Shown one piece after another: positions 1,755 through 21,753 of a DNA stretch of 24,446 nt (its first letter is position 1; the number at the start of each line of letters is the position of its first letter). This DNA is from a virus. Taxonomy: Duplodnaviria > Caudoviricetes. Made by a program: the position numbers and the translations under genes. The notes beneath the pieces are model-generated. The model was not told where the DNA came from and did not search any database. It saw only the letters and a program-made list of their open reading frames with translations. The stretch spans positions 1 through 24,446 of IMG/VR virus record IMGVR_UViG_3300025387_000072; one strand, given 5' to 3'.

Positions 1755-2669
1755 TTACGAGGTTGGGAACGAACCGTAGATCGCCCGCCAGTTGTAATAG
1801 CCGAACGAGTAACGCTCATAGCCCTTGACGAGAAGGTTATCAGTCACGAAGTCGACTTGCATGTCGGTTTCAAACTTCACGCGCTCCATGTAGGCAAGGC
1901 CGTCGATGTTCGTGAGCAAGAACCAAGCATAAGACGAGGTCAAGAAGTCGTTGACCATGTAGCCTTCAGGCAACCCACCGGCAGTGGTCATGATCGCGTT
2001 AACATCATTATCTGCTGTGCCTGGGCGGAGTTCCGTCTTCAAAAGACGAATAGCAACCGGCTCAAGAGCAGGTGGGATAATGAGCTTGCGACCGCGAGCA
2101 AACACCTTCAGGCCAGCCTGATCGCGGAAGTTCGTGCGGATTGCGATCATCGCATTCAGCAACGAGGCTTCGTTGAGGTCAATCTGGGTTGTTGGCGTGT
2201 TTGCAACCGAACCACCGTCAATCGGATGCGAGGTGGAGCAGAGAGCAACACCGTCACCGCCGACTGCAGCATTGTAGGTCTGCGCCGTGTTCAGGATGTT
2301 CGCGCCATAGATTTCCTTGGTCTGCTGGAATGATTCCACCAAGCCGAGGTTGGAAGGCGTGAACTGGGTCTTGTAGAGGTTGTCGTCGATTGCCTTGCGG
2401 GTAATCGCGTAACCGAGAGCGATTTCAGTGTGCTCTTGGTTGTACACGAAACGCTCACCAGCGCCCGAATCAAAGGAGGTCTGGCCACCTTCGGTCTTGA
2501 GCTGGGCGAGGCCGAGGTAACGCATTTCAGCGGTACGCTCAAGAGCCATCTTTGAGTCGTGCTTCGTGAAGATTTTGTCGTACTGAGACGGAATCTGCTC
2601 GTACTTGCCTTCAACACCACGGAGTCCGGGGAGGAGAAGGTCTTTGATCTGTGAGAGATTAACAGCCAT
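1755..2669 (-). CDS. Major capsid protein (HK97 fold, Mu gpT-like family)
   Basis: 304 aa with recognisable motifs LLLPGL, EIALGYAITRKAIDDNLY, GGDGVALCSTSHP, KLIIPPAL, AWFLLT and ERYSFGYYNWRAIYGS. AAGGA RBS; expected position after scaffold. Confidence 0.92.
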   Translation of the reverse strand: MAVNLSQIKDLLLPGLRGVEGKYEQIPSQYDKIFTKHDSKMALERTAEMRYLGLAQLKTEGGQTSFDSGAGERFVYNQEHTEIALGYAITRKAIDDNLYKTQFTPSNLGLVESFQQTKEIYGANILNTAQTYNAAVGGDGVALCSTSHPIDGGSVANTPTTQIDLNEASLLNAMIAIRTNFRDQAGLKVFARGRKLIIPPALEPVAIRLLKTELRPGTADNDVNAIMTTAGGLPEGYMVNDFLTSSYAWFLLTNIDGLAYMERVKFETDMQVDFVTDNLLVKGYERYSFGYYNWRAIYGSFPTS

Positions 2670-4918: not shown

Positions 4919-5311
4919 TTACCAAACAATATCAGGTGATTTGACGCGACCGCGAACGGCTACGTCATCAAGGATGCGGCAACGCTTGCTGTTAATGTCG
5001 ATTGCCCACCCATCAGAGGGCCGGAAAACCACCCAGTCACCGACCTTGATCTTCATATTCTTGAACCATTTGCCCGTCTCGTCGACAAAAGCATCCGGCC
5101 CCATCTTCAATACCAAGCCGACTTTGCCTTGGTATTTGTCTTCGTCGATTGTCTTGTCGGTCAGAATGATGCCCGAGGCGGTTTTCTGAGGACGAATATA
5201 GACGCCGACCAAGATTTGGTTGTTGAAAATTTCAACTTCCTTGATGTCACCAATCTCGTCCAAGATTTCCTTCTTGGGGTCGACGGCATGTTTCATTTTC
5301 ATAGGAGGCAT
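4919..5311 (-). CDS. groES: GroES-like co-chaperonin (Cpn10)
   Basis: NQILV...KTASGIIL mobile loop, GLVLKMGP, IKVGDWVVF and RILDDVAVRG all match the GroES pattern. Confidence 0.88.
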   Translation of the reverse strand: MPPMKMKHAVDPKKEILDEIGDIKEVEIFNNQILVGVYIRPQKTASGIILTDKTIDEDKYQGKVGLVLKMGPDAFVDETGKWFKNMKIKVGDWVVFRPSDGWAIDINSKRCRILDDVAVRGRVKSPDIVW

Positions 5312-5621: not shown

Positions 5622-7190
5622 TTACCGGCCCTTCAGACCGTAAGCCTTGATCTTCTCAAGCCGCGCTTCACCGCCGCCCGATCCCGAATCAATCGGATAA
5701 CCGGTGCGGCCACCCGACTTGCGAGGCATTGGCATGCCGCCCTGCGGAGGCATTTGCGGTGGCATTTGCGGAGGCATACCGCCACCCATTGCCGGAGAAG
5801 GCATCGGGACGCCAGCAGGGGGACGAGGAGGCATCACAGGCGCGTTTGGCATTGGCTGTTGTTGGCCGTGCCCTGCCCCAATGATGATATTCACCTGCGT
5901 CTTGCCCTTCGTGCGGCCACCCTTGGCATGCGCCGAACGACCGCCGGTTGCGCCAGGCACTTTCTTTTTGCTGTCGCCGGAGAACACGTTCCCGCCGCGA
6001 GCATAGTTGTCCATGTCTGGGCCATCATTGCGGCCTTCTGCCATTGCCTTCTGGCGCTCTGGTGCCATTTGGCCGGTGCGGCGGCTCTTCAAATATTCGC
6101 CGTGCTTCCGACCCAAATCACCCACTTCGTCCAGCATGATTTGCGAGAACGATTTGCCTGGGTTTGCGGCCTTTTTAGCGGCGATTTCTTTGGCAGTTTC
6201 CTCGCGCCGCTTCATCCAATTGGCGTGAGAATCATGGTCATCAGACATGCCGCCCATGGCCTTTTGCGACCGAAGGGCCTTCGGCTTCACCATCTTCTTG
6301 ATGAGCTTCTTGTCCTCGGCCTCGTCAGGATGGCGGCTGGCCTTGCCACCCTTCTTGTAGCCTTCTGGGTTCTGGTTCACGTAACCTTCGCCAGATTGAT
6401 AAGCAGGCTGTTTAGGAGGGTTGTTTGGGTTTTTGGCCGCCGGACGATATGGATACGGATTGTAATCCTTGTCGCCCTTGCGCGGAGGAACCGGAACCGG
6501 ACCGCCGTCATCGCGATGAACCTTGCCGCCGTGCTTCCGCATACCGGCTGCCTTGCCCATCTGCTCGGATTGTGCCGACACAGGGTTTTGGCCAACGCCG
6601 CCGCTGAATTTATGAGCACGACCGCCTGACTTTTTGCCATTAGGTTTTGGCAAACTGTTCATTAAATTGTGCCGACCGTTAACAATATGTTCAGGAACTT
6701 TTTTTCCTTCTTTTTCAAAAGAAGAAATTTTATTGCTCATTGAATTGTATGCGTCAGCAAATTCCGGGGTGGCGATAGCGCCATTCCACATGCGTTCTCC
6801 AGCTTTTACTTTGCCGCCTTCAGCGCGGCGCACCTTGCCGCCCTTTTTGAACGCGCCGACATGCTTCGTGCCTTCACGGACGTCATTTGCCATGCGGACG
6901 TCGCGGTTGATCAAGGTGTCGGGGGTCAGGCTGGTAGCGCGGCCACCGGCTTTGCGCGGCTTGCGGTCGGGCCGCTTCATGGCCTCGCCGCCTTCGCACT
7001 TGCCAACAACCTTGCCGCCCTTTTTGAATTGGCGCTTGGAAAGCGGGCGAGCGCCGGTTTTCACACCAGCGTTCTCGGCTTCAGGGGGTGTCCAAGTCGA
7101 GCTGTCGACTTTGGTGTGCGGGTCAGCCGAAGTCAGGCGCTTGGCCTTTTCCTTCATGGCATTCCGCGCTGTTTTTGCGGTCTCAGACAT
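5622..7190 (-). CDS. Basic low-complexity protein with about 13 xxGG motifs (putative internal virion protein or polyprotein)
   Basis: 522 aa, Lys/Gly/Pro-rich. Repeated FKKGG, RKAGG, RAEGG, KKSGG, RKHGG, YKKGG, YARGG, HAKGG, RKSGG. GGAG RBS. Confidence 0.8.
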   Translation of the reverse strand: MSETAKTARNAMKEKAKRLTSADPHTKVDSSTWTPPEAENAGVKTGARPLSKRQFKKGGKVVGKCEGGEAMKRPDRKPRKAGGRATSLTPDTLINRDVRMANDVREGTKHVGAFKKGGKVRRAEGGKVKAGERMWNGAIATPEFADAYNSMSNKISSFEKEGKKVPEHIVNGRHNLMNSLPKPNGKKSGGRAHKFSGGVGQNPVSAQSEQMGKAAGMRKHGGKVHRDDGGPVPVPPRKGDKDYNPYPYRPAAKNPNNPPKQPAYQSGEGYVNQNPEGYKKGGKASRHPDEAEDKKLIKKMVKPKALRSQKAMGGMSDDHDSHANWMKRREETAKEIAAKKAANPGKSFSQIMLDEVGDLGRKHGEYLKSRRTGQMAPERQKAMAEGRNDGPDMDNYARGGNVFSGDSKKKVPGATGGRSAHAKGGRTKGKTQVNIIIGAGHGQQQPMPNAPVMPPRPPAGVPMPSPAMGGGMPPQMPPQMPPQGGMPMPRKSGGRTGYPIDSGSGGGEARLEKIKAYGLKGR

Positions 7191-8145
7191 AGGTATCTCC
7201 GGAGGGTTTAGAGCGGGCGTCCCCGCTTGCCACAGGGGATGGGTTCAGGGCTGGTGGCGGAGCGCTGACCTTTGTGAGCACATGCTCGACAATTGCGGGA
7301 TTATGAAGTTTGGCTGGTGATTTTGCAACCGCGCCGCCTTGCTCGTACTTGCGCCTGACTTTCACGCGGTTGTGATCAAAGACAACATAGTTGCGCGTTT
7401 GTTGCTCATTTGAGCCACGGCTACCCGCGTCAAAATACTTGATACCGTGCAGGCCATGTTTATCCAGCAATCCTGCAGCCATCGGCAATCCGTGCTTGGC
7501 CGTTAACTTCTCGTGCAGCTTCTCGCCGGTGAACCAACCGCGATCAACCAAATCAGCAAGCTCGTTCCTAAACGTGGGATGCAGATACCGGTCGGCCACA
7601 AGATTAGACACAGCATTTTTAGCATGCTCTGACTGTCCGTTTATTGGCTTATCCCAATCCAAAAAGTGATCAGGATGCGCGTCGATGGCGACCTCGTACA
7701 TGTGGCCGGGGTCTTTTTTCCATTCAATTGTTTTGCCGCGAAAAGGCAAAATTGTTTCGGCCCATTTTTGAGCTTTTTCCGCTTCCATTCTTTTATAATA
7801 ATCTGGATGCGATAAATTAGGTTTTAACTTTTCTGAATTACGCAAATCATAATCAATAGCTTGATCTGCTGTATGACCAAGTTGATACATATGATTTGCA
7901 AGACGATAAATGTGTTCTGTTGATGGGTCTTCTTGCGTAGGCGGCGCTACACGTTTTCCATCAATATGAACAACTTCATCCGTTAAAGCATTTTTGTATC
8001 CTTGGGCCACAGGCTCATGCTCGGCAAAATACAGACCATGACCATAAGCCTGTGCGCCTTCGCCCGTGCCGATCTTGGACGTGTCAAACTGTTCAAAGTC
8101 GTGCGGTGAGCCGTGGTAGGCGGTGATGGGCGCGTCGTCTGTCAT
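7183..8145 (-). CDS. ADP-ribosyltransferase-like protein (ART-PolyVal type)
   Basis: N-terminal AYHGSPHDFEQFDTSKIGTGEGAQAYGHGLYFAE, then GHMYEV, LDWDKP and GIKYFD...NYVVFD, a pattern recalled from phage polyvalent-protein ART domains. Confidence 0.7.
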   Translation of the reverse strand: MTDDAPITAYHGSPHDFEQFDTSKIGTGEGAQAYGHGLYFAEHEPVAQGYKNALTDEVVHIDGKRVAPPTQEDPSTEHIYRLANHMYQLGHTADQAIDYDLRNSEKLKPNLSHPDYYKRMEAEKAQKWAETILPFRGKTIEWKKDPGHMYEVAIDAHPDHFLDWDKPINGQSEHAKNAVSNLVADRYLHPTFRNELADLVDRGWFTGEKLHEKLTAKHGLPMAAGLLDKHGLHGIKYFDAGSRGSNEQQTRNYVVFDHNRVKVRRKYEQGGAVAKSPAKLHNPAIVEHVLTKVSAPPPALNPSPVASGDARSKPSGDTYV

Positions 8146-8387
8146 AACTTCCCCGTGAACGTAGGTTCGCCGACTTCAGCCGTGTCGATGTGAAGGCCGG
8201 GAATATGATGCGGGCGATGCACTGCGCCGCCGCGTTTGAAATGAAACGGTTGCCCAGTATGTTGCTCAGGAAGACCTTCCATAAGCGTATGCCAGTCTGG
8301 GCGTTCGTAGCCCTCAGCGGCCATGACATGCTCTTCATTGCGCGGGAATTGGGCGTAAAAATTTTCTTTATTAAGAGTTGGTTTCAT
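8142..8387 (-). CDS. Hypothetical protein with FKRGG motif
   Basis: 81 aa; overlaps both neighbours (ATGA with the ART gene); GGAG RBS. Confidence 0.7.
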   Translation of the reverse strand: MKPTLNKENFYAQFPRNEEHVMAAEGYERPDWHTLMEGLPEQHTGQPFHFKRGGAVHRPHHIPGLHIDTAEVGEPTFTGKL

Positions 8388-9663
8388 TTGGATTCTCCAT
8401 TTGGTTGTTGTTATTCAAATCGGGCGTCATTTTGTTTTGTTGCGGCGGGATGACAACTTGCGTGTTTGTCACTTTTGTCGCGCCGAGCTTTGGTTTGCCC
8501 GATGGCCCGAGCTCAGTCGATTCTTCACGTTCATATGTTCCTTTTGGAGTTTTGACACGACCCGGATCATACTTCACAAAAAATCCTTTGGATTCTTTGT
8601 GCGCTTCACCGACCTTGCCAAATCCTTTTTTGTTTTTCAGCCCGACAATCACACCATTGGACCCCTCTGGTTGCATATCAAGAGGCCTAAAGTCATGCGT
8701 ATCGCCGTTCACAACGCGATATGCTTTGCCTGTTTCCTGATCGTGCACCGTCTCGGGAAGGTGTTCCTTATCCGTAAACGCCATTGCCACGTTGTCGCCC
8801 TTGTCCAACCGGCGGCGCATCTGGTGCCAGTTCGTGTGCGGGTTAACAACGTCAGGCTGCGACACACCGGTTGACGAATATGTGTAGTGGTGATTGCTCG
8901 CCACCGGCTCATATTTCATTTTCGTGTAGTCATAAAACGAGACGTCAGGGAATGACTTGATGATTGACTGATGAATGCGGGGGTTGATGTCTGACAAGAC
9001 ATTCAAACGAACGCCGAGATGGTTTCCGTTGCCTTCCGCTTCGTGCCTTGCCGCCGCGATCTCGTCATACAAGCGTGTCGCAAACGCGCCTGGATGGTTC
9101 ATCATAAAAAGCGTCTTGTTTAAGCTATTGAGACGAGGCCCCTCAAATGCAGACAAGTCTTGGCCGCCACCAACTTTGAAGTAATTGCCTGATGTTTTGC
9201 CAAGACATTCGTCTTTGCACGATGCGTGATTAGGGCATGTGTTGAAACCGCCCATCTCAAATGCCGGTGCAAGAGGTAACCCTGTCGTCTCGACGCCACG
9301 GCCATCGGGGAGCTTAAGAGGTTCTTCGCCTTTGTATCCCTTCTCGCTTTTCAAAAGTTTTTCGTTCTTGCCGAGCAGGCTGGAGATTTTCATCTTCTTC
9401 ATGATCGCCTTCGCCGCTTGGCTATTGGCAATGCGGTCCGCGCGATCAAGCGATTTGTGGTGGGCAATAGCGTCGTCAAACGCTGTCGCCAAACTCATGA
9501 TGTTGATTTTATTCGGGTCAATCGTGGAAAAAGGGCGCACGGGCCCAGACACGCTTCCGCCTTGCGGCTGGATTTGAAACTTCTGATTTTTGGAGCCGCC
9601 GTCGGCCAACTTCACGCGGACGGCGGGCTTGATTGAACGGGCAATGCCGAGAAGGTCTCTCAT
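8371..9663 (-). CDS. GP88-family-like Cys-cluster protein
   Basis: LPLAPA, TCPNHASCKDECL, VRLNVLSDI, FYDYTK, NVAMAF, GDTHDFRPLD and IVGLKNK match the recalled phage gene product 88 pattern. ATGA-coupled to portal. Confidence 0.7.
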   Translation of the reverse strand: MRDLLGIARSIKPAVRVKLADGGSKNQKFQIQPQGGSVSGPVRPFSTIDPNKINIMSLATAFDDAIAHHKSLDRADRIANSQAAKAIMKKMKISSLLGKNEKLLKSEKGYKGEEPLKLPDGRGVETTGLPLAPAFEMGGFNTCPNHASCKDECLGKTSGNYFKVGGGQDLSAFEGPRLNSLNKTLFMMNHPGAFATRLYDEIAAARHEAEGNGNHLGVRLNVLSDINPRIHQSIIKSFPDVSFYDYTKMKYEPVASNHHYTYSSTGVSQPDVVNPHTNWHQMRRRLDKGDNVAMAFTDKEHLPETVHDQETGKAYRVVNGDTHDFRPLDMQPEGSNGVIVGLKNKKGFGKVGEAHKESKGFFVKYDPGRVKTPKGTYEREESTELGPSGKPKLGATKVTNTQVVIPPQQNKMTPDLNNNNQMENPNETNS

Positions 9664-12011
9664 TGTGCCGTCCCCCGCGTGATCGCAGGAATGACGTTGC
9701 CGAGAAGATTGCGGACAACTTGCTCGCTCTCAGGGTGCACAGCGATGTTTTGGGCGAGATCAATCATTTGAATGTTCTCTTTGGCCCGCATCTCCTGCTG
9801 CTCCATAGCGTTGTCCGCCTCGTCCTTCTTCATTGTCGCAGCAAGTTGCGCCGCCTTGATCTTGGTGTCTTGCACCTTGGCGTCGGCGAGCTTCTCTTTA
9901 ATGATCAAGTCAATCGCGTCGACCTTCTTCTCGTGGTCGGACTTCTCTGCCGGTGCCACGAGGCCGCCCTGCTGGCTGTCCTGATGTGCCTTTGCAAAGT
10001 CAAGCGCGACCTTCGCCTTGCCGACCATTGCCTTGGTATCGCTGTCCTGCTTCTTGATTTGGAGCTCGGCCATCTTGGCTTGCGCCTCGGGGCTCTGCTG
10101 CGGGCCGAGCGCTTCTGGCGGCACCATGAATTGCTCGGGGTTGCTCCAACCCACAGCCTGCAGCGCCATGCGGTCGACCGCAATCGGGTCATACAGCGCA
10201 GGGTTTGCCGACTGGATTTGTTTCAGCGCCATCACCTTCATCAGGCGCTGCGTCTGGCTCGCCGTGTTTGGGTCTGCCTGCGGCACAAGGTCGGCCTGAT
10301 CAAGAGCCCGCGTGAAGGTTTGCTGATCCCATTTGCGGGCCGGACGCTTGTTTTGCTGCCAAAACGCTTCAGGATTTTCACGGAAGCATTTGACAAGTAA
10401 CGCAAATTCTTCCGATTGCGCCGAGTGCATGCGTTTGTGGACCGCGTTCAGGACTTTGGTCGCTTGGTCGATCAACGCAATCGTGGTGCCGACCGGCGCG
10501 TCTTGCTTGCCTTCGCCGACTGCTTGCTCGGCTGTGCCGCCAATACGCATGCCGGTTTGAGCCATGTTGTCGACGAGCGCCATGAGAGCCTGCGACGGCT
10601 CTTTGTATGGGAGCGGCATGACAGCCTGATTGATCGGCAGGCCGCCGGTCTTGACCAGAGCGCCGCCGCCCGGCGGGACACGGAAGATGTTGGTGTTCTG
10701 CCGCGCACCGGCATCCGAGTAGAGGAAGCCTGGGAAATTGGCATACATGCCCGCATCGAGCAGCTCGCGCCATGCGGCTGTCACCGCGTTGGTCGTGTTG
10801 CCTAAGATGTGGAGGAGACCAATGTCATAAAAGCCCATGCCCGGCACGAAGGTATATTTGACAAAGTTCTGGCGAGCTTCAGGAAGGTCTTTTGTATCTT
10901 CGTCATAATTTCTCACAATCGACAGGATTTCATGGGTCGATGCGTCAATCGTGACGCGATACGGGATTTCAAGGCCGGTATCTTTGCCATTGTGGCGGTG
11001 CTCAAACCCACGGATGTCGAGCTCGCAATAGCATTCATAGATTTCACGGTCGCGGTCTTCAGGGTTGAACGACGATGTCGAGATGCCCTGCTGCGCCATC
11101 TTCTCGCGCTGGGCAGCGTCCCACTTGATCATCTTCGGGTCAGACAGGTCGATCTCGCGATACACGCCAAGGATTTGCATCCGCTTGACGGTCGACGACC
11201 TCATATAGATGCGGTGGGTGATACGCTTCGCGTTACTGAGATCGGTTGCGGAGTTGTTGACGATGAGATCGTCAGCGTCGACGCTTTCGGAGACCGGGCG
11301 GTTCCGCAATGGGCAATAGTACACCTTCTTGAAGGCTGTCCCGCCAAACCCGAGCATGAGCAGCATACGGTCGGTGTCAGGGTAATACTCTTTTGCAGTA
11401 GATGTGAGATAGTGGTTGAGGTCGTTCTCAAGGTCGTTGGCCAAGGCGTCGGACTGAGAATCAGAGTTGTTGTTGTCCTCGCGGATTTTCACTGGCCCAT
11501 CAGTCGGGAGCAACTCGCTTCGTGCGTTAGCTTGGAAGCGGAGCACTGCTTCAAGCAGGAGAGGGTGTCGTACACGCGACATTCCTTCCACAGGCGCACC
11601 GTCTGCCGCTCCGGCAAGTCCAGGGATTTCAACCTTAAGCCCAAGGAGCTTAATTCCTTGCGCCCGATCCTCAATCCATTCCTTACGAGAGTCGAGGTCA
11701 TCCTCAATGCCTTTCATGAGATCGTGCGCGATCCGGCCCAACTCGGTCTGCTCAATCTCCTCCACAAGATTGTCAAACCATCCGGTCTTGCGCCCTTCCG
11801 CACGCTCAAGGGGCGACCCGTCGAGGGAAAGTGTGATCGAGCCGTCAGGCAGCTCGATGGTCATGATGTTGCCGTGCTCGTCCAATTCTGTTTTCGGCCC
11901 GCCCTCGTCGGCGTCTTGGATGATGATCTCGGAGCTGTCCTGAAATTCAGACGGCTGTTCGTCCTCATTGCCGAGGCGGATGTTGGGGCTCAAACCGGGG
12001 ACAAGGGCCAT
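9660..12011 (-). CDS. Portal protein (P22-like)
   Basis: 783 aa directly after terL. Motifs SRKEW, HPLLLEAVLRFQA, GTAFKKVYY, GFYDIGLLH and APVGTTIAL; C-terminal coiled-coil barrel. Confidence 0.9.
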   Translation of the reverse strand: MALVPGLSPNIRLGNEDEQPSEFQDSSEIIIQDADEGGPKTELDEHGNIMTIELPDGSITLSLDGSPLERAEGRKTGWFDNLVEEIEQTELGRIAHDLMKGIEDDLDSRKEWIEDRAQGIKLLGLKVEIPGLAGAADGAPVEGMSRVRHPLLLEAVLRFQANARSELLPTDGPVKIREDNNNSDSQSDALANDLENDLNHYLTSTAKEYYPDTDRMLLMLGFGGTAFKKVYYCPLRNRPVSESVDADDLIVNNSATDLSNAKRITHRIYMRSSTVKRMQILGVYREIDLSDPKMIKWDAAQREKMAQQGISTSSFNPEDRDREIYECYCELDIRGFEHRHNGKDTGLEIPYRVTIDASTHEILSIVRNYDEDTKDLPEARQNFVKYTFVPGMGFYDIGLLHILGNTTNAVTAAWRELLDAGMYANFPGFLYSDAGARQNTNIFRVPPGGGALVKTGGLPINQAVMPLPYKEPSQALMALVDNMAQTGMRIGGTAEQAVGEGKQDAPVGTTIALIDQATKVLNAVHKRMHSAQSEEFALLVKCFRENPEAFWQQNKRPARKWDQQTFTRALDQADLVPQADPNTASQTQRLMKVMALKQIQSANPALYDPIAVDRMALQAVGWSNPEQFMVPPEALGPQQSPEAQAKMAELQIKKQDSDTKAMVGKAKVALDFAKAHQDSQQGGLVAPAEKSDHEKKVDAIDLIIKEKLADAKVQDTKIKAAQLAATMKKDEADNAMEQQEMRAKENIQMIDLAQNIAVHPESEQVVRNLLGNVIPAITRGTAQ

Positions 12012-18161: not shown

Positions 18162-18361
18162 TTTCCCGTTCTCTGCATCATTGAGAAGTTCTTCTGCAAT
18201 TTGACTTGTGGGTTCGGGAATGTCCAGCACTCGCCGGTGTCGTCTTGGAAACACACCCAGAGCAGGTGATGCTCCTGACCATAGTCGATCAGGAAGTGCG
18301 CCTTGGCGGCCCCCTTGGGCGTGTCCAGCGGGATCGTCGGGTTGAGTTGGATCATCATCAC
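18158..18361 (-). CDS. Conserved hypothetical phage protein
   Basis: QLNPTIPLDTPKG...LIDYGQEHHLLWVCFQDDTGECW; coupled on both sides. Confidence 0.75.
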   Translation of the reverse strand: MMMIQLNPTIPLDTPKGAAKAHFLIDYGQEHHLLWVCFQDDTGECWTFPNPQVKLQKNFSMMQRTGK

Positions 18362-18612
18362 GCAGTCCTCTTCAATGCGATGTTTGCTACTTTGACCATC
18401 TCTGTAATTATTTTGGCGCAGTCTTGTTTATCCATGTGCGTCAAATCATCCAAACTTGGTTCAAGATCAATTATTTGCCAAAATTTTATTCGCAAACTCT
18501 CAATCGTATTGGCGGCTTCATGAAGCCTTTTGCTTCTTTCAGAAACAGTATCCCATTCTTCGCAAACTATTTGTAACCTTAAGTCACACAGCAGTTCAAT
18601 AATATCCATCAC
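18358..18612 (-). CDS. Hypothetical protein, diverged DIVERLR-family paralog
   Basis: MDIIELL...EAANTIESLR...ANIALK. Confidence 0.7.
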   Translation of the reverse strand: MMDIIELLCDLRLQIVCEEWDTVSERSKRLHEAANTIESLRIKFWQIIDLEPSLDDLTHMDKQDCAKIITEMVKVANIALKRTA

Positions 18613-18971
18613 TCCCCCTCCTTCAGTGCGGCACGGGCAATTTCTTGCATGTTGTCACATTCTCCTTGACAACCGCATGTGTCACTTTGTTCAATCTTAC
18701 GCAACGCTTCCCGCAACCGCTCGTTGTCTGCGTAAAGTTCCCCTCCCCATTCATTCGCGTCATCTAACGCCTGACTGAAAATTTCTCGCTCACGCCGCAA
18801 ACGCTCAATCTCCATCTGATAAAAAGCATTCTCAGATTCCACTGCGGCAAGTGCGTCTAACTTATCTTCTCGCAACCGCTCAATCTCATCGGCGGCTTCG
18901 CCCATCATATCCGCTGCATAGCCTGATAATCCATCGGCGTAATCACGCAACCGTTCAACGATGTCCATCAC
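18609..18971 (-). CDS. Ead/Ea22-like coiled-coil protein (DIVERLR family)
   Basis: MDIVERLR...EAADEIERLR...ARAALKEGE. Confidence 0.75.
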   Translation of the reverse strand: MMDIVERLRDYADGLSGYAADMMGEAADEIERLREDKLDALAAVESENAFYQMEIERLRREREIFSQALDDANEWGGELYADNERLREALRKIEQSDTCGCQGECDNMQEIARAALKEGE

Positions 18972-19201
18972 TTTCCCTCCTCATAATCATCGGCATCGAC
19001 CGCCGTAAGGTAATCCTCTTCTTCTGGATTAAAAGATTCAAGCCTTTCAAGCGTCAAATCCGTCGGCATCTTAAAAAACGATTTGCAGTACGGGCATTGA
19101 ATGACATACGCAAACAACCCATCAAAATGCGACCCGCGTCCACAATCGCAATGAAAGTCCATGCACAGATCAGTGCCTTTGTATTGGACGTTGGTCTGCA
19201 T
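18968..19201 (-). CDS. Zinc-ribbon hypothetical protein
   Basis: KGTDLCMDFHCDCG...IQCPYC; start at 19201 or 19204, coupled to the upstream stop. Confidence 0.75.
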   Translation of the reverse strand: MQTNVQYKGTDLCMDFHCDCGRGSHFDGLFAYVIQCPYCKSFFKMPTDLTLERLESFNPEEEDYLTAVDADDYEEGK

Positions 19202-19542
19202 CACTCGCCCCCCTTCAGTGCGGCGCGGGCAAAATCGGCCACGCATTCCGCGCATTCGTCATACATTGCTATTCCGTGATTGCACCGATCCATTTTGCTT
19301 GGGATTCCATCGGGTCGATACCGTTGAGCAACTGAACGATCAATGTCCAATTCCGCAATTTTCTTCAACGATTCCTGCAACCGATCTTTAATTTCAAACA
19401 ACGATTTTATTGTCTGGTCATCAAAATGCACTTCATCCCGCAACCGCTCGATCTCGTCGGCGGCTTCTTTCATCCACTCATACATCACAAATTGGATGTT
19501 TGGCGGGGACGGATTACGTAACCGTTCAACAATGTCAGTCAT
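19201..19542 (-). CDS. Ead/Ea22-like protein (DIVERLR family) with Cys/His cluster
   Basis: MTDIVERLR...EAADEIERLR...CNHG...CAEC...ARAALKGGE; ATGA overlap at 19539-19542. Confidence 0.75.
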   Translation of the reverse strand: MTDIVERLRNPSPPNIQFVMYEWMKEAADEIERLRDEVHFDDQTIKSLFEIKDRLQESLKKIAELDIDRSVAQRYRPDGIPSKMDRCNHGIAMYDECAECVADFARAALKGGE

Positions 19543-19757
19543 TTTGCGTCTCCATTCCATTTTTCCGCCAATGCTACGGCAAACCATTTTGGCACAAGTA
19601 TCGGCGTCGTCCGATCTTCTCGCCATCCGCCGAGATCGGTCAAATAATTCTGAATGCCGTCTGGGCCCGCGACATACCACGCGGGCCAATCATCCGTTTT
19701 GTCAGAAGCAGACCGCGCGATATACGGGCCGGGCTTGGTTGGTTTTCTAATCTCCAT
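19539..19757 (-). CDS. Hypothetical protein
   Basis: 72 aa, coupled on both sides. Confidence 0.65.
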   Translation of the reverse strand: MEIRKPTKPGPYIARSASDKTDDWPAWYVAGPDGIQNYLTDLGGWREDRTTPILVPKWFAVALAEKWNGDAK

Positions 19758-21048: not shown

Positions 21049-21239
21049 GGCATCGTCCCATGATGACCGGGCAGGATTGCCCCAAGTTTTATGTCTTCGC
21101 GACCTTTGAAGGCTTGCTCGGCATTTTTGTATGCCGACAGTAAATCTTCCGCCTCTGTCCAAAAAACTGTTCGGGCGCGAAACTTTTTGCCATCATCTTT
21201 TGATGCGTCATAAGTTACTTGTATCGTCCACTTTTTCAT
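21045..21239 (-). CDS. Hypothetical protein
   Basis: 64 aa; ATGA overlaps at both ends. Confidence 0.7.
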   Translation of the reverse strand: MKKWTIQVTYDASKDDGKKFRARTVFWTEAEDLLSAYKNAEQAFKGREDIKLGAILPGHHGTMP

Positions 21240-21505
21240 AACACCCCCTCAAACAAACGATTTTGTATTTCTTCCATCCTGATCAAGCCCAGACTGTCCG
21301 GCCTATACAAGGAACGGTACAGATTGTGATTAACCACCGCGCGGACTGCTTTATAACCCATGCTGATTTCAACGTAGGCATCACGCGCGATGTCATACTC
21401 GACCAGCGCCACGGGCTTCACCGGCATGATCGGCGCAACACGCAGCACCGCAGGTGCAGCAACGAGGCTGACAAGCCCTTGAATGAATCCTCGGCGGTTG
21501 ATCAT
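21236..21505 (-). CDS. Tat-like leader fused to MCP(82-110)-like segment
   Basis: NRRGFIQ plus a hydrophobic stretch; residues 46-74 align ungapped to MCP 82-110 with 12/29 identities. Confidence 0.8.
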   Translation of the reverse strand: MINRRGFIQGLVSLVAAPAVLRVAPIMPVKPVALVEYDIARDAYVEISMGYKAVRAVVNHNLYRSLYRPDSLGLIRMEEIQNRLFEGVL

Positions 21506-21753
21506 TTTGAAAACTCAGAAAACAATAATGGGTATTGCGACGGCATGGAGTAATGTTTTCCCTGTATCGCCCGAAGCCCCGGCAACAAAAGTTCTTGAAT
21601 TGCATTGAGACCAATTCCGCTCCGTTGGACGGCCACTAGAACTTCTTCAGGCGGCATAACTTTGACCGGCATGATTGTCGTCACGCGGATGACTGCTGGA
21701 GCTGCGACGAGGCTTGCAAGCCCTTGGATAAATCCTCGGCGGTTGATGATCAT
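21502..21753 (-). CDS. Tat-like leader fused to MCP(5-34)-like segment
   Basis: NRRGFIQ plus a hydrophobic stretch; residues 49-78 align ungapped to MCP 5-34 with 16/30 identities. Confidence 0.85.
   Translation of the reverse strand: MIINRRGFIQGLASLVAAPAVIRVTTIMPVKVMPPEEVLVAVQRSGIGLNAIQELLLPGLRAIQGKHYSMPSQYPLLFSEFSK

What the first reader, a model, noticed from the sequence alone, without database searches (positions are those of the whole stretch)
21236..21753. Two tandem mini-genes fuse a twin-arginine leader to different fragments of the phage's own major capsid protein (candidate capsid-mimic/decoy system)
Seen: the two ORFs share a 29-aa leader with 25/29 identities (INRRGFIQGLxSLVAAPAVxRVxxIMPVK), then diverge completely. 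Each tail matches a different part of the MCP encoded ~19 kb away. The 83-aa ORF has LNAIQELLLPGLRAIQGKHYSMPSQYPLLF versus MCP 5-34 LSQIKDLLLPGLRGVEGKYEQIPSQYDKIF (16/30, no gaps). The 89-aa ORF has EISMGYKAVRAVVNHNLYRSLYRPDSLGL versus MCP 82-110 EIALGYAITRKAIDDNLYKTQFTPSNLGL (12/29, no gaps). Both sit in the early/accessory cluster, not the structural operon. Established: some defence systems are triggered by capsid protein (Lit by the Gol peptide of T4 gp23; CapRel SJ46 by MCP), and satellites interfere with capsid assembly. Inference: this is a modular 'leader + capsid epitope' family. It could titrate or relocalise capsid-sensing immune proteins before late expression, poison assembly of co-infecting relatives, or tether procapsid assembly to the membrane. 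I know of no described system like this.
Basis: partly seen in the sequence, partly recalled or inferred. Interest (0 to 1): 0.95.

Follow-up and report, generated by a model that had tools for sequence, protein, structure and literature searches.

The report
Export-tagged mimics of phage capsid pieces
Two small neighbouring phage genes each join a twin-arginine leader of the bacterial export-signal type to a different, selection-maintained piece of the phage's own capsid protein, and they belong to a large family in uncultured phages that likely serves as bait to pull capsid-sensing host immune proteins to the membrane, a role that is still untested.

Summary
Observation confirmed. The two ORFs share a leader (25/29). 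Their tails match the window's HK97-fold major capsid protein (MCP) far beyond shuffles (0 of 20,000 each).
RR precedes the leader core in 112 of 113 cases, though the search did not ask for it. In 49 phage genomes, 12 of 58 tails match a protein of their own genome (shuffles 0 of 348), across four capsid families. All 13 profile-assigned tails match a family their genome carries (1.7 expected). Tails are under purifying selection (dN/dS 0.12-0.39). Portal and tail pieces also occur; no tail hit a replication-gene profile.
Limits: most tails remain unassigned, the genes are accessory (4 of 13 relatives), and expression, export and partner are untested.
Best guess (0.38): Tat-directed bait for host sensors of virion proteins. 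Close rival (0.30): it binds capsid or portal subunits.
This scan noted the same family before on other genomes (8 notes). My seven literature searches for it found no paper describing it.

The parts
21502..21753 (-). ORF A, 83 aa: twin-arginine leader plus a piece like the MCP N-arm
   Evidence: orthologues P0001-P0003, L001, L002
21661..21753 (-). Leader of ORF A (aa 1-31); V instead of the family's A at the presumed cleavage position
   Evidence: PF10518 15.7 bits vs cut-off 22.7; TIGR01409 15.2 vs 16.7; family alignment A3
21520..21609 (-). Capsid-like segment of ORF A (aa 49-78), matching MCP 5-34
   Evidence: 16/30, 0 of 20,000 shuffles; predicted docking on MCP 37-304
21236..21505 (-). 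ORF B, 89 aa: twin-arginine leader plus a piece like the MCP strand and the start of the spine helix
   Evidence: orthologues L001, L002, L014, L015, P0004-P0008
21416..21505 (-). Leader of ORF B (aa 1-30)
   Evidence: 25/29 identical to leader A, codon positions 26/28/14
21284..21370 (-). Capsid-like segment of ORF B (aa 46-74), matching MCP 82-110
   Evidence: 12/29, 0 of 20,000 shuffles; dN 0.053, dS 0.44 vs the L015 tail
1755..2669 (-). Major capsid protein, 304 aa, HK97 fold; source family of both tails
   Evidence: PHROG 371; Foldseek to SU10, T5 and HK97 capsids; 43% to Pelagibacter phage HTVC023P capsid protein
2568..2657 (-). MCP codons 5-34, counterpart of tail A
2340..2426 (-). MCP codons 82-110, counterpart of tail B

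Best explanation
The two genes are members of a large accessory phage family that joins a conserved twin-arginine leader to short, selected copies of conserved pieces of the phage's own virion proteins, and they likely act as bait: the piece would bind a host immune protein that senses virion proteins, and the leader would drag the complex to the Tat translocase, where it is held or exported. Shown by computation: intact coupled ORFs, conserved RR-x-F/L leader, capsid origin of both tails, own-family matching across unrelated capsid types, purifying selection, modular exchange of leader and tail. Inferred: expression, Tat targeting, the host binding partner, and the anti-defence effect.
For: (1) Cargo is virion-specific. 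The 41 profile hits from 273 tails fall in 9 of 230 gene clusters, 31 of them in four MCP clusters; none of the 17 clusters annotated as non-virion among the 60 largest was hit. In 150 proteins picked by leader alone, 25 of 149 tails hit virion clusters (17 MCP, 6 portal/adaptor, 2 tail) vs 0 of 298 controls. (2) Cargo is of the phage's own type: 12 of 58 own-genome hits at >=30 bits vs 0 of 348 shuffles and 50 of 2,784 non-self pairs; 13 of 13 profile hits lie in a family the genome carries, 1.7 expected. (3) Matching is at family level (own genome first for 6 of 12), as expected if conserved features are copied. (4) Single tails mix 20-40 aa motifs of different proteins, e.g. P0295 and P0275 with MCP plus portal; such strings cannot form a capsid domain. 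(5) Tail dN/dS 0.12-0.39, leader mostly 0.03-0.13. (6) The leader fits the Tat pattern (PMC6708511 passages). (7) MCP, portal and tail proteins are documented immune triggers, and Lit and CapRel detect MCP through short motifs (10.64898/2026.01.04.697583).
Against: No host, sensor, transcript or export datum exists. Avs7, 8 and 10 bind the folded MCP A-domain through broad interfaces, while all 27 tail domains at >=8 bits on this MCP lie in residues 2-154 or 272-304 and none in 155-271, the inferred A-domain. Polymerase, helicase and annealing proteins are also sensed but are not copied. A trigger mimic could activate rather than block. Tail A keeps residues predicted to pack on the MCP itself, which fits the first rival. 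45 of 58 tails are unassigned at >=14 bits. Seventeen GTDB loci, mostly alphaproteobacterial, carry the leader with a tail that matched no virion profile. The window's leaders score below both curated Tat cut-offs.
Confidence: 0.38

Rival explanations
1. The tails bind virion subunits themselves. Each piece would slot into folding or unassembled capsid or portal protein, and the leader would take the subunit to the membrane or out of the cytoplasm. This would poison assembly of co-infecting relatives of the same type, or clear the phage's own premature monomers.
For: Tail A (aa 42-83) co-folded with MCP 37-304 scored 0.75 vs best control 0.00; the mark was reached by 116 of 157 solved complexes and 2 of 215 mismatched pairs; runs agreed in >=87% of contacts; partner pLDDT >=74. 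This is complementation of a split protein and may pass by likeness: it shows that the packing residues are kept, not that binding occurs. The predicted contact surface (MCP 94-126, 238-290) overlaps the region that tail B copies. The N-arm hydrophobic pattern is kept across 94 tails. Own-type matching fits equally well. Avs and DSR2 sense monomers.
Against: A poison of the phage's own capsid type would cost the carrier unless tightly timed. There is no allele-level tracking: tail A has 16/30 identities to its own MCP and 15-18/30 to MCPs 85-98% identical. Mixed MCP-plus-portal strings and tail-collar pieces are hard to fit to one assembly step. A required assembly tether is unlikely because relatives lack the genes.
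Confidence: 0.3
2. The leader is the working part, for example by occupying or jamming the Tat translocase or stressing the membrane. The tail is interchangeable cargo that only needs to be short and partly hydrophobic.
For: The leader is more constrained than the tails, and their histories are decoupled: window vs L001, leader dS 0 and tail dS 1.34; L001 vs L002, leader dS 1.13 and tail dS 0.02. 88 tail clusters among 143 tails; most are unassigned. L054 has almost no tail. A short hydrophobic stretch stops Tat export of unstructured cargo (PMC6708511). The leader also occurs in bacterial genomes with a non-virion tail.
Against: It does not explain why assignable cargo comes from virion genes of the phage's own type and not from replication genes. 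It also does not explain why motif residues such as P, G and Y persist while synonymous sites turn over.
Confidence: 0.17
3. The genes are recombination debris: capsid gene scraps captured behind a mobile leader and now decaying.
For: Phage accessory regions are mosaic (general knowledge). Alleles of ORF B differ by internal deletions or swaps (alignment).
Against: dN/dS is below 1 in every tail family tested. Tail A vs MCP is identical at 24 of 30 second but only 6 of 30 third codon positions. Frames are intact in the homologues examined. Own-capsid pieces occur in 12 of 58 leader ORFs but only 3 of 6,721 other small ORFs, a set that includes spurious frames; one of the three has another twin-arginine start.
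Confidence: 0.04

Closest known systems
Twin-arginine (Tat) signal peptides (Pfam PF10518, TIGR01409; review PMC6708511)
   Same: RR followed by F/L then L/I, an uncharged 12-16 residue hydrophobic stretch, a basic residue before a V-R-A site, about 30 aa
   Different: Phage-encoded; followed by a conserved MP(V/I) motif; cargo is 30-130 aa of virion-protein pieces, not a folded periplasmic protein. The window's two leaders fall below the curated cut-offs and have V at the presumed -1 position.
DSAD1, phage inhibitor of the tail-tube sensor DSR2 (PMC11087589, abstract)
   Same: A small phage protein that competes with a virion protein for a host sensor: the logic of the best explanation
   Different: The abstract describes competition at an overlapping site, not a copied piece of the trigger and no export leader. 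Here the bait is copied from the virion gene, varies with capsid type, and no target is known.
Capsid-triggered defences: Lit, CapRel (short motifs); Avs7, 8, 10 (folded A-domain) (10.64898/2026.01.04.697583)
   Same: They define MCP, portal and tail proteins as immune triggers, the classes copied here
   Different: These are host sensors, not phage mimics. The pieces copied from this MCP avoid the inferred A-domain that Avs7, 8 and 10 bind.
Satellite and prophage assembly-interference proteins (e.g. Rcm of SaPIpT1028, PMC12409344, listing only; others recalled)
   Same: Small proteins acting on capsid assembly: the logic of the first rival
   Different: They are encoded by a parasite against a helper phage. 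Here the gene lies in the phage that owns the capsid type and carries a Tat-type leader.

Membership tests
Tat signal peptide | Twin arginine in an S/T-R-R-x-F-L-type motif | tested here: met
   RR in 112 of 113 distinct viral leaders found by a pattern that lacked it (the other has KR); background 6%; F or L follows at the F position in 110 of 112
Tat signal peptide | Uncharged, moderately hydrophobic h-region | tested here: met
   12-16 residues, no charge in 102 of 112, mean Kyte-Doolittle 2.2; window ORFs 1.9 and 2.0
Tat signal peptide | A-x-A-type signal peptidase site | tested here: inconclusive
   The family consensus V-R-A was fixed by my search pattern, so it is no independent test. 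The window ORFs have V at that position and may be uncleaved anchors (inference).
Tat signal peptide | Score above the curated Pfam/NCBIfam cut-off | tested here: not met
   PF10518 15.7 and 13.1 vs 22.7; TIGR01409 15.2 vs 16.7 for ORF A, no hit for ORF B
Tat signal peptide | TatABC-dependent targeting or export | not testable with these tools
   needs an experiment
Major capsid protein (HK97 fold) paralogue | Complete fold with A- and P-domains | tested here: not met
   Only about 30 of 304 residues match per ORF; no tail domain in 155-271
Phage anti-defence competitor (DSAD1-like) | Binds a host sensor and blocks its activation | not testable with these tools
   Host and sensor are unknown; no co-fold with a sensor was run
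Capsid assembly-interference protein | Binds capsid subunits and alters assembly | tested here: inconclusive
   Co-fold of tail A with the N-arm-less MCP passed (0.75 vs 0.00) but may pass by likeness; effect on assembly untested
Decaying gene remnant | dN/dS near 1, broken frames | tested here: not met
   Tail dN/dS 0.12-0.39; codon-position pattern

The most novel reading that the evidence does not exclude
Phages keep a modular library of self-epitope baits: short conserved pieces of their own capsid, portal and tail proteins, shuffled behind one Tat leader. The baits capture the host proteins that sense virion parts and deport them through the host's own Tat translocase, with Tat's folding check as the gate. 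The thousands of tails would then be a natural map of the virion epitopes that bacterial immunity reads.
Probability: 0.25. Interest if true: 0.97.

Novelty: categorically new. Interest (0 to 1): 0.85.

Why it matters
A phage cannot easily mutate away the conserved parts of its capsid, portal and tail, and bacteria sense exactly these proteins. A widespread family (2,193 clusters at 50% identity with E<=1e-10) that copies those parts, matched to each phage's own capsid type and kept by selection, points to an undescribed use of self-mimicry. Under the bait reading it is a new anti-defence principle and a ready-made peptide set for finding unknown sensors. Under the first rival it is a natural library of assembly-inhibiting peptides. 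Either way it would be a phage use of the Tat pathway for which I found no paper.

Tried and rejected
PHROGs gave no family for either ORF. Among 125 tails it gave 21 hits at E<=0.05: 13 virion, 5 unknown, 3 non-virion (amidase, helicase, methyltransferase; E 0.001-0.05), with about 6 expected by chance.
No cultured phage with the leader was found: ORF A and three leader queries against 50,697 annotated phage records gave only one MCP match; short hydrophobic queries are insensitive there.
The search for shorter MCP relatives listed 120 of 376 hits, all high-identity partial MCP sequences, and was uninformative.
My by-eye idea that the L008-type tails derive from the gene next to the MCP was not supported, and three tail families found no source among 70 clusters by profile-profile comparison (one search failed on input).
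Both AlphaFold models of the MCP were weak (mean pLDDT 54 and 38), so domain borders are inferred from topology. A PDB sequence search gave no real match. The ESM Atlas named no family.
Allele-specific tracking of the own MCP was tested and not seen.
An RNA- or DNA-level element was rejected: third codon positions and arginine codons vary freely.
A required assembly role was rejected as unlikely.
Expression was left untested.

Full report
Observation. The window is a 24.4-kb piece of a tailed-phage genome whose annotated genes lie on the minus strand: primase, small accessory genes, terminase, portal, a GroES-like gene and the capsid gene. They sit in a chain of 4-base stop/start overlaps. Their leaders share 25 of 29 residues, and codon positions 1, 2 and 3 agree at 26, 28 and 14 of 29, so the leader is conserved as protein. 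Tail A matches MCP 5-34 (16/30, score 95) and tail B matches MCP 82-110 (12/29, score 77). No shuffle reached these scores: 0 of 20,000 against the MCP, 0 of 300 against the window's other six-frame ORFs. The donor is an HK97-fold capsid protein, 43% identical to that of Pelagibacter phage HTVC023P. The host is unknown.

Family size. A profile of 12 relatives found 822 proteins at E<=1 among 8,000 scored candidates. A 75-leader profile found 12,103 clusters at E<=1e-3 and 2,193 at E<=1e-10 among 1.84 billion representatives; the looser count may include ordinary Tat signals. The best 150 have a median length of 89 aa. In GTDB the pattern gave 58 matches, 32 with an in-frame RR and an open tail, mostly in Alphaproteobacteria. 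Seventeen of these form one family whose tail matched no virion profile. Of 8 of its neighbourhoods examined, 6 showed no phage hallmark, one a terminase and one a primase-polymerase. That profile test is insensitive: it also missed the capsid-type tail of L360.

The leader. The pattern did not contain the arginines, yet RR stood 10-14 residues upstream in 112 of 113 distinct viral leaders, against 6% background. It is followed by F/L and L/I and an uncharged stretch. This fits the Tat consensus in PMC6708511 (passages read). The window's leaders score below the curated Tat cut-offs and have V where the family has A at the presumed cleavage position, so they may stay anchored (inference). The conserved MP(V/I) after that site is unexplained.

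The tails. I fetched the 48 of 49 leader-bearing records of 40 kb or more (the 180-kb G020 was left out for budget; gaps of up to 1.5 kb remain in six records) and added the window. They hold 58 leader ORFs. Twelve tails match a protein of their own genome at >=30 bits, against 0 of 348 shuffled or reversed tails and 50 of 2,784 tail-genome pairs from other genomes. Eleven of the 12 targets are capsid proteins of PHROG 371, 283, 212 or 9953; the twelfth is unannotated but shares its motif with a PHROG 9953 protein. A T4-type case (PHROG 138) appeared in L049. With profiles of the gene clusters, 13 of 58 tails hit at >=14 bits, and all 13 hit a family present in their own genome, 1.7 expected. 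The profiles include the own-genome member, which favours own hits, but no tail hit an absent family. Own-capsid pieces are tied to the leader: 3 of 6,721 other small ORFs had one (one target presumed, not annotated). Hits concentrate on virion genes: 41 hits in 9 clusters, 31 in MCP clusters, none in the 17 non-virion clusters among the 60 largest. In the set chosen by leader alone, 25 of 149 tails hit (17 MCP, 6 portal/adaptor, 2 tail) against 0 of 298 controls, and some mix MCP and portal motifs. About four in five tails remain unassigned. Matching is at family level: the own genome ranked first for 6 of 12, and tail A is as close to related MCPs as to its own.

Selection. Nei-Gojobori estimates give tail dN/dS of about 0.12 (window B vs L015), 0.24 (window A vs L001) and 0.22-0.39 pooled within four groups; leaders give 0.03-0.13, with 0.53 in one single-pair group. 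Pairs are few and not independent. Leader and tail distances are decoupled, which indicates exchange of modules. Ninety-four A-type tails keep the hydrophobic and aromatic pattern of the MCP N-arm; the PG anchor was fixed by my search. The genes are accessory: 4 of 13 records chosen by MCP similarity carry a leader, 0 of the 2 near-complete ones.

Structure. On this MCP, 27 tail domains at >=8 bits among 298 tails (0 in shuffles) lie in residues 2-154 and 272-304, none in 155-271; many come from one clade. By HK97 topology on a weak model these are the N-arm, E-loop, spine helix and P-domain; the A-domain is avoided (inference). Tail A co-folded with the MCP lacking its first 36 residues scored 0.75 against a best control of 0.00 (116 of 157 solved complexes and 2 of 215 mismatches reach the mark; contacts agree >=87%; partner pLDDT >=74). 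This is a split-protein pair and may pass by likeness. The predicted contact surface includes the helix that tail B copies, so A and B reproduce two parts that touch in the folded protein.

Mechanism. Shown: selected, modular fusion of a Tat-type leader to own-type virion pieces. Inferred: the piece is bait and the leader takes the catch to the Tat translocase. Tat passes short unstructured hydrophilic cargo but stalls on hydrophobic stretches (PMC6708511), so an unbound tail would sit at the membrane, and a bound partner could be held or co-exported. I put host sensors of virion proteins first (0.38), because tails copy conserved motifs at family level, mix proteins, and cover classes known to trigger immunity (10.64898/2026.01.04.697583: abstract, passages, sections 11 and 12 read). 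Against it, the best-characterised MCP sensors bind the folded A-domain, and sensed replication proteins are not copied. Binding to capsid or portal subunits is close behind (0.30). A leader-only role gets 0.17 and debris 0.04; the remainder is for readings I have not thought of.

Comparison and novelty. The leader works like a Tat signal by sequence but fails the curated cut-offs, and export is untested. The ORFs are not capsid paralogues. DSAD1 (PMC11087589, abstract read) is the nearest functional precedent. Seven searches of the held library (listings only, apart from the papers named) found no description of this family; subscription papers are not covered and no supplements were read. 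This scan has noted the family on at least 8 other windows; those notes are not independent evidence. Verdict: real, selected, widespread, undescribed in the papers searched, function open. Interest 0.85.

Noticed in passing
window 18358-18612, 18609-18971 and 19201-19689 (all -): Three small ORFs in the same accessory region share a short DIVERLR-like motif, two at their start and one internally: possibly a second modular leader family.
   Followed up: no
L297:734-1414 (+), genome G045: A different twin-arginine start precedes two pieces of the genome's own capsid protein, so more than one leader type may carry capsid pieces.
   Followed up: partly
L371 (Bradyrhizobium erythrophlei), L315, L331, L348 and 13 more GTDB loci: The same leader heads a conserved family of about 100 aa in mostly alphaproteobacterial genomes, in varied and mostly non-phage neighbourhoods, with a tail of unknown origin.
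   Followed up: partly
P0250, P0258, P0275, P0295, P0300, P0334, P0337, P0363, P0374, P0381: One short portal/adaptor motif (PHROG 332 around positions 260-310) recurs in many otherwise unrelated tails: a candidate hot epitope.
   Followed up: partly
L053:9953-10324 and 10387-11685: A leader gene with a P22-type coat piece lies directly upstream of its own coat gene; position in the genome varies across the family.
   Followed up: partly
L305 and L303 (G047): Four leader genes in one genome; two adjacent ones together carry three pieces of the P22-type coat.
   Followed up: partly
window 4919-5311 (-): Phage-encoded GroES-like co-chaperonin in the head module.
   Followed up: no
window 7183-8145 (-) and 8371-9663 (-): A protein with an ART-PolyVal ADP-ribosyltransferase domain and a GP88-family protein lie between portal and head genes.
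   Followed up: no
L028, L052, L065, L077, L091, L140 and L008, L012, L035: Two leader subfamilies with long conserved tails (dN/dS about 0.27 in the first) that match no known or local family.
   Followed up: partly
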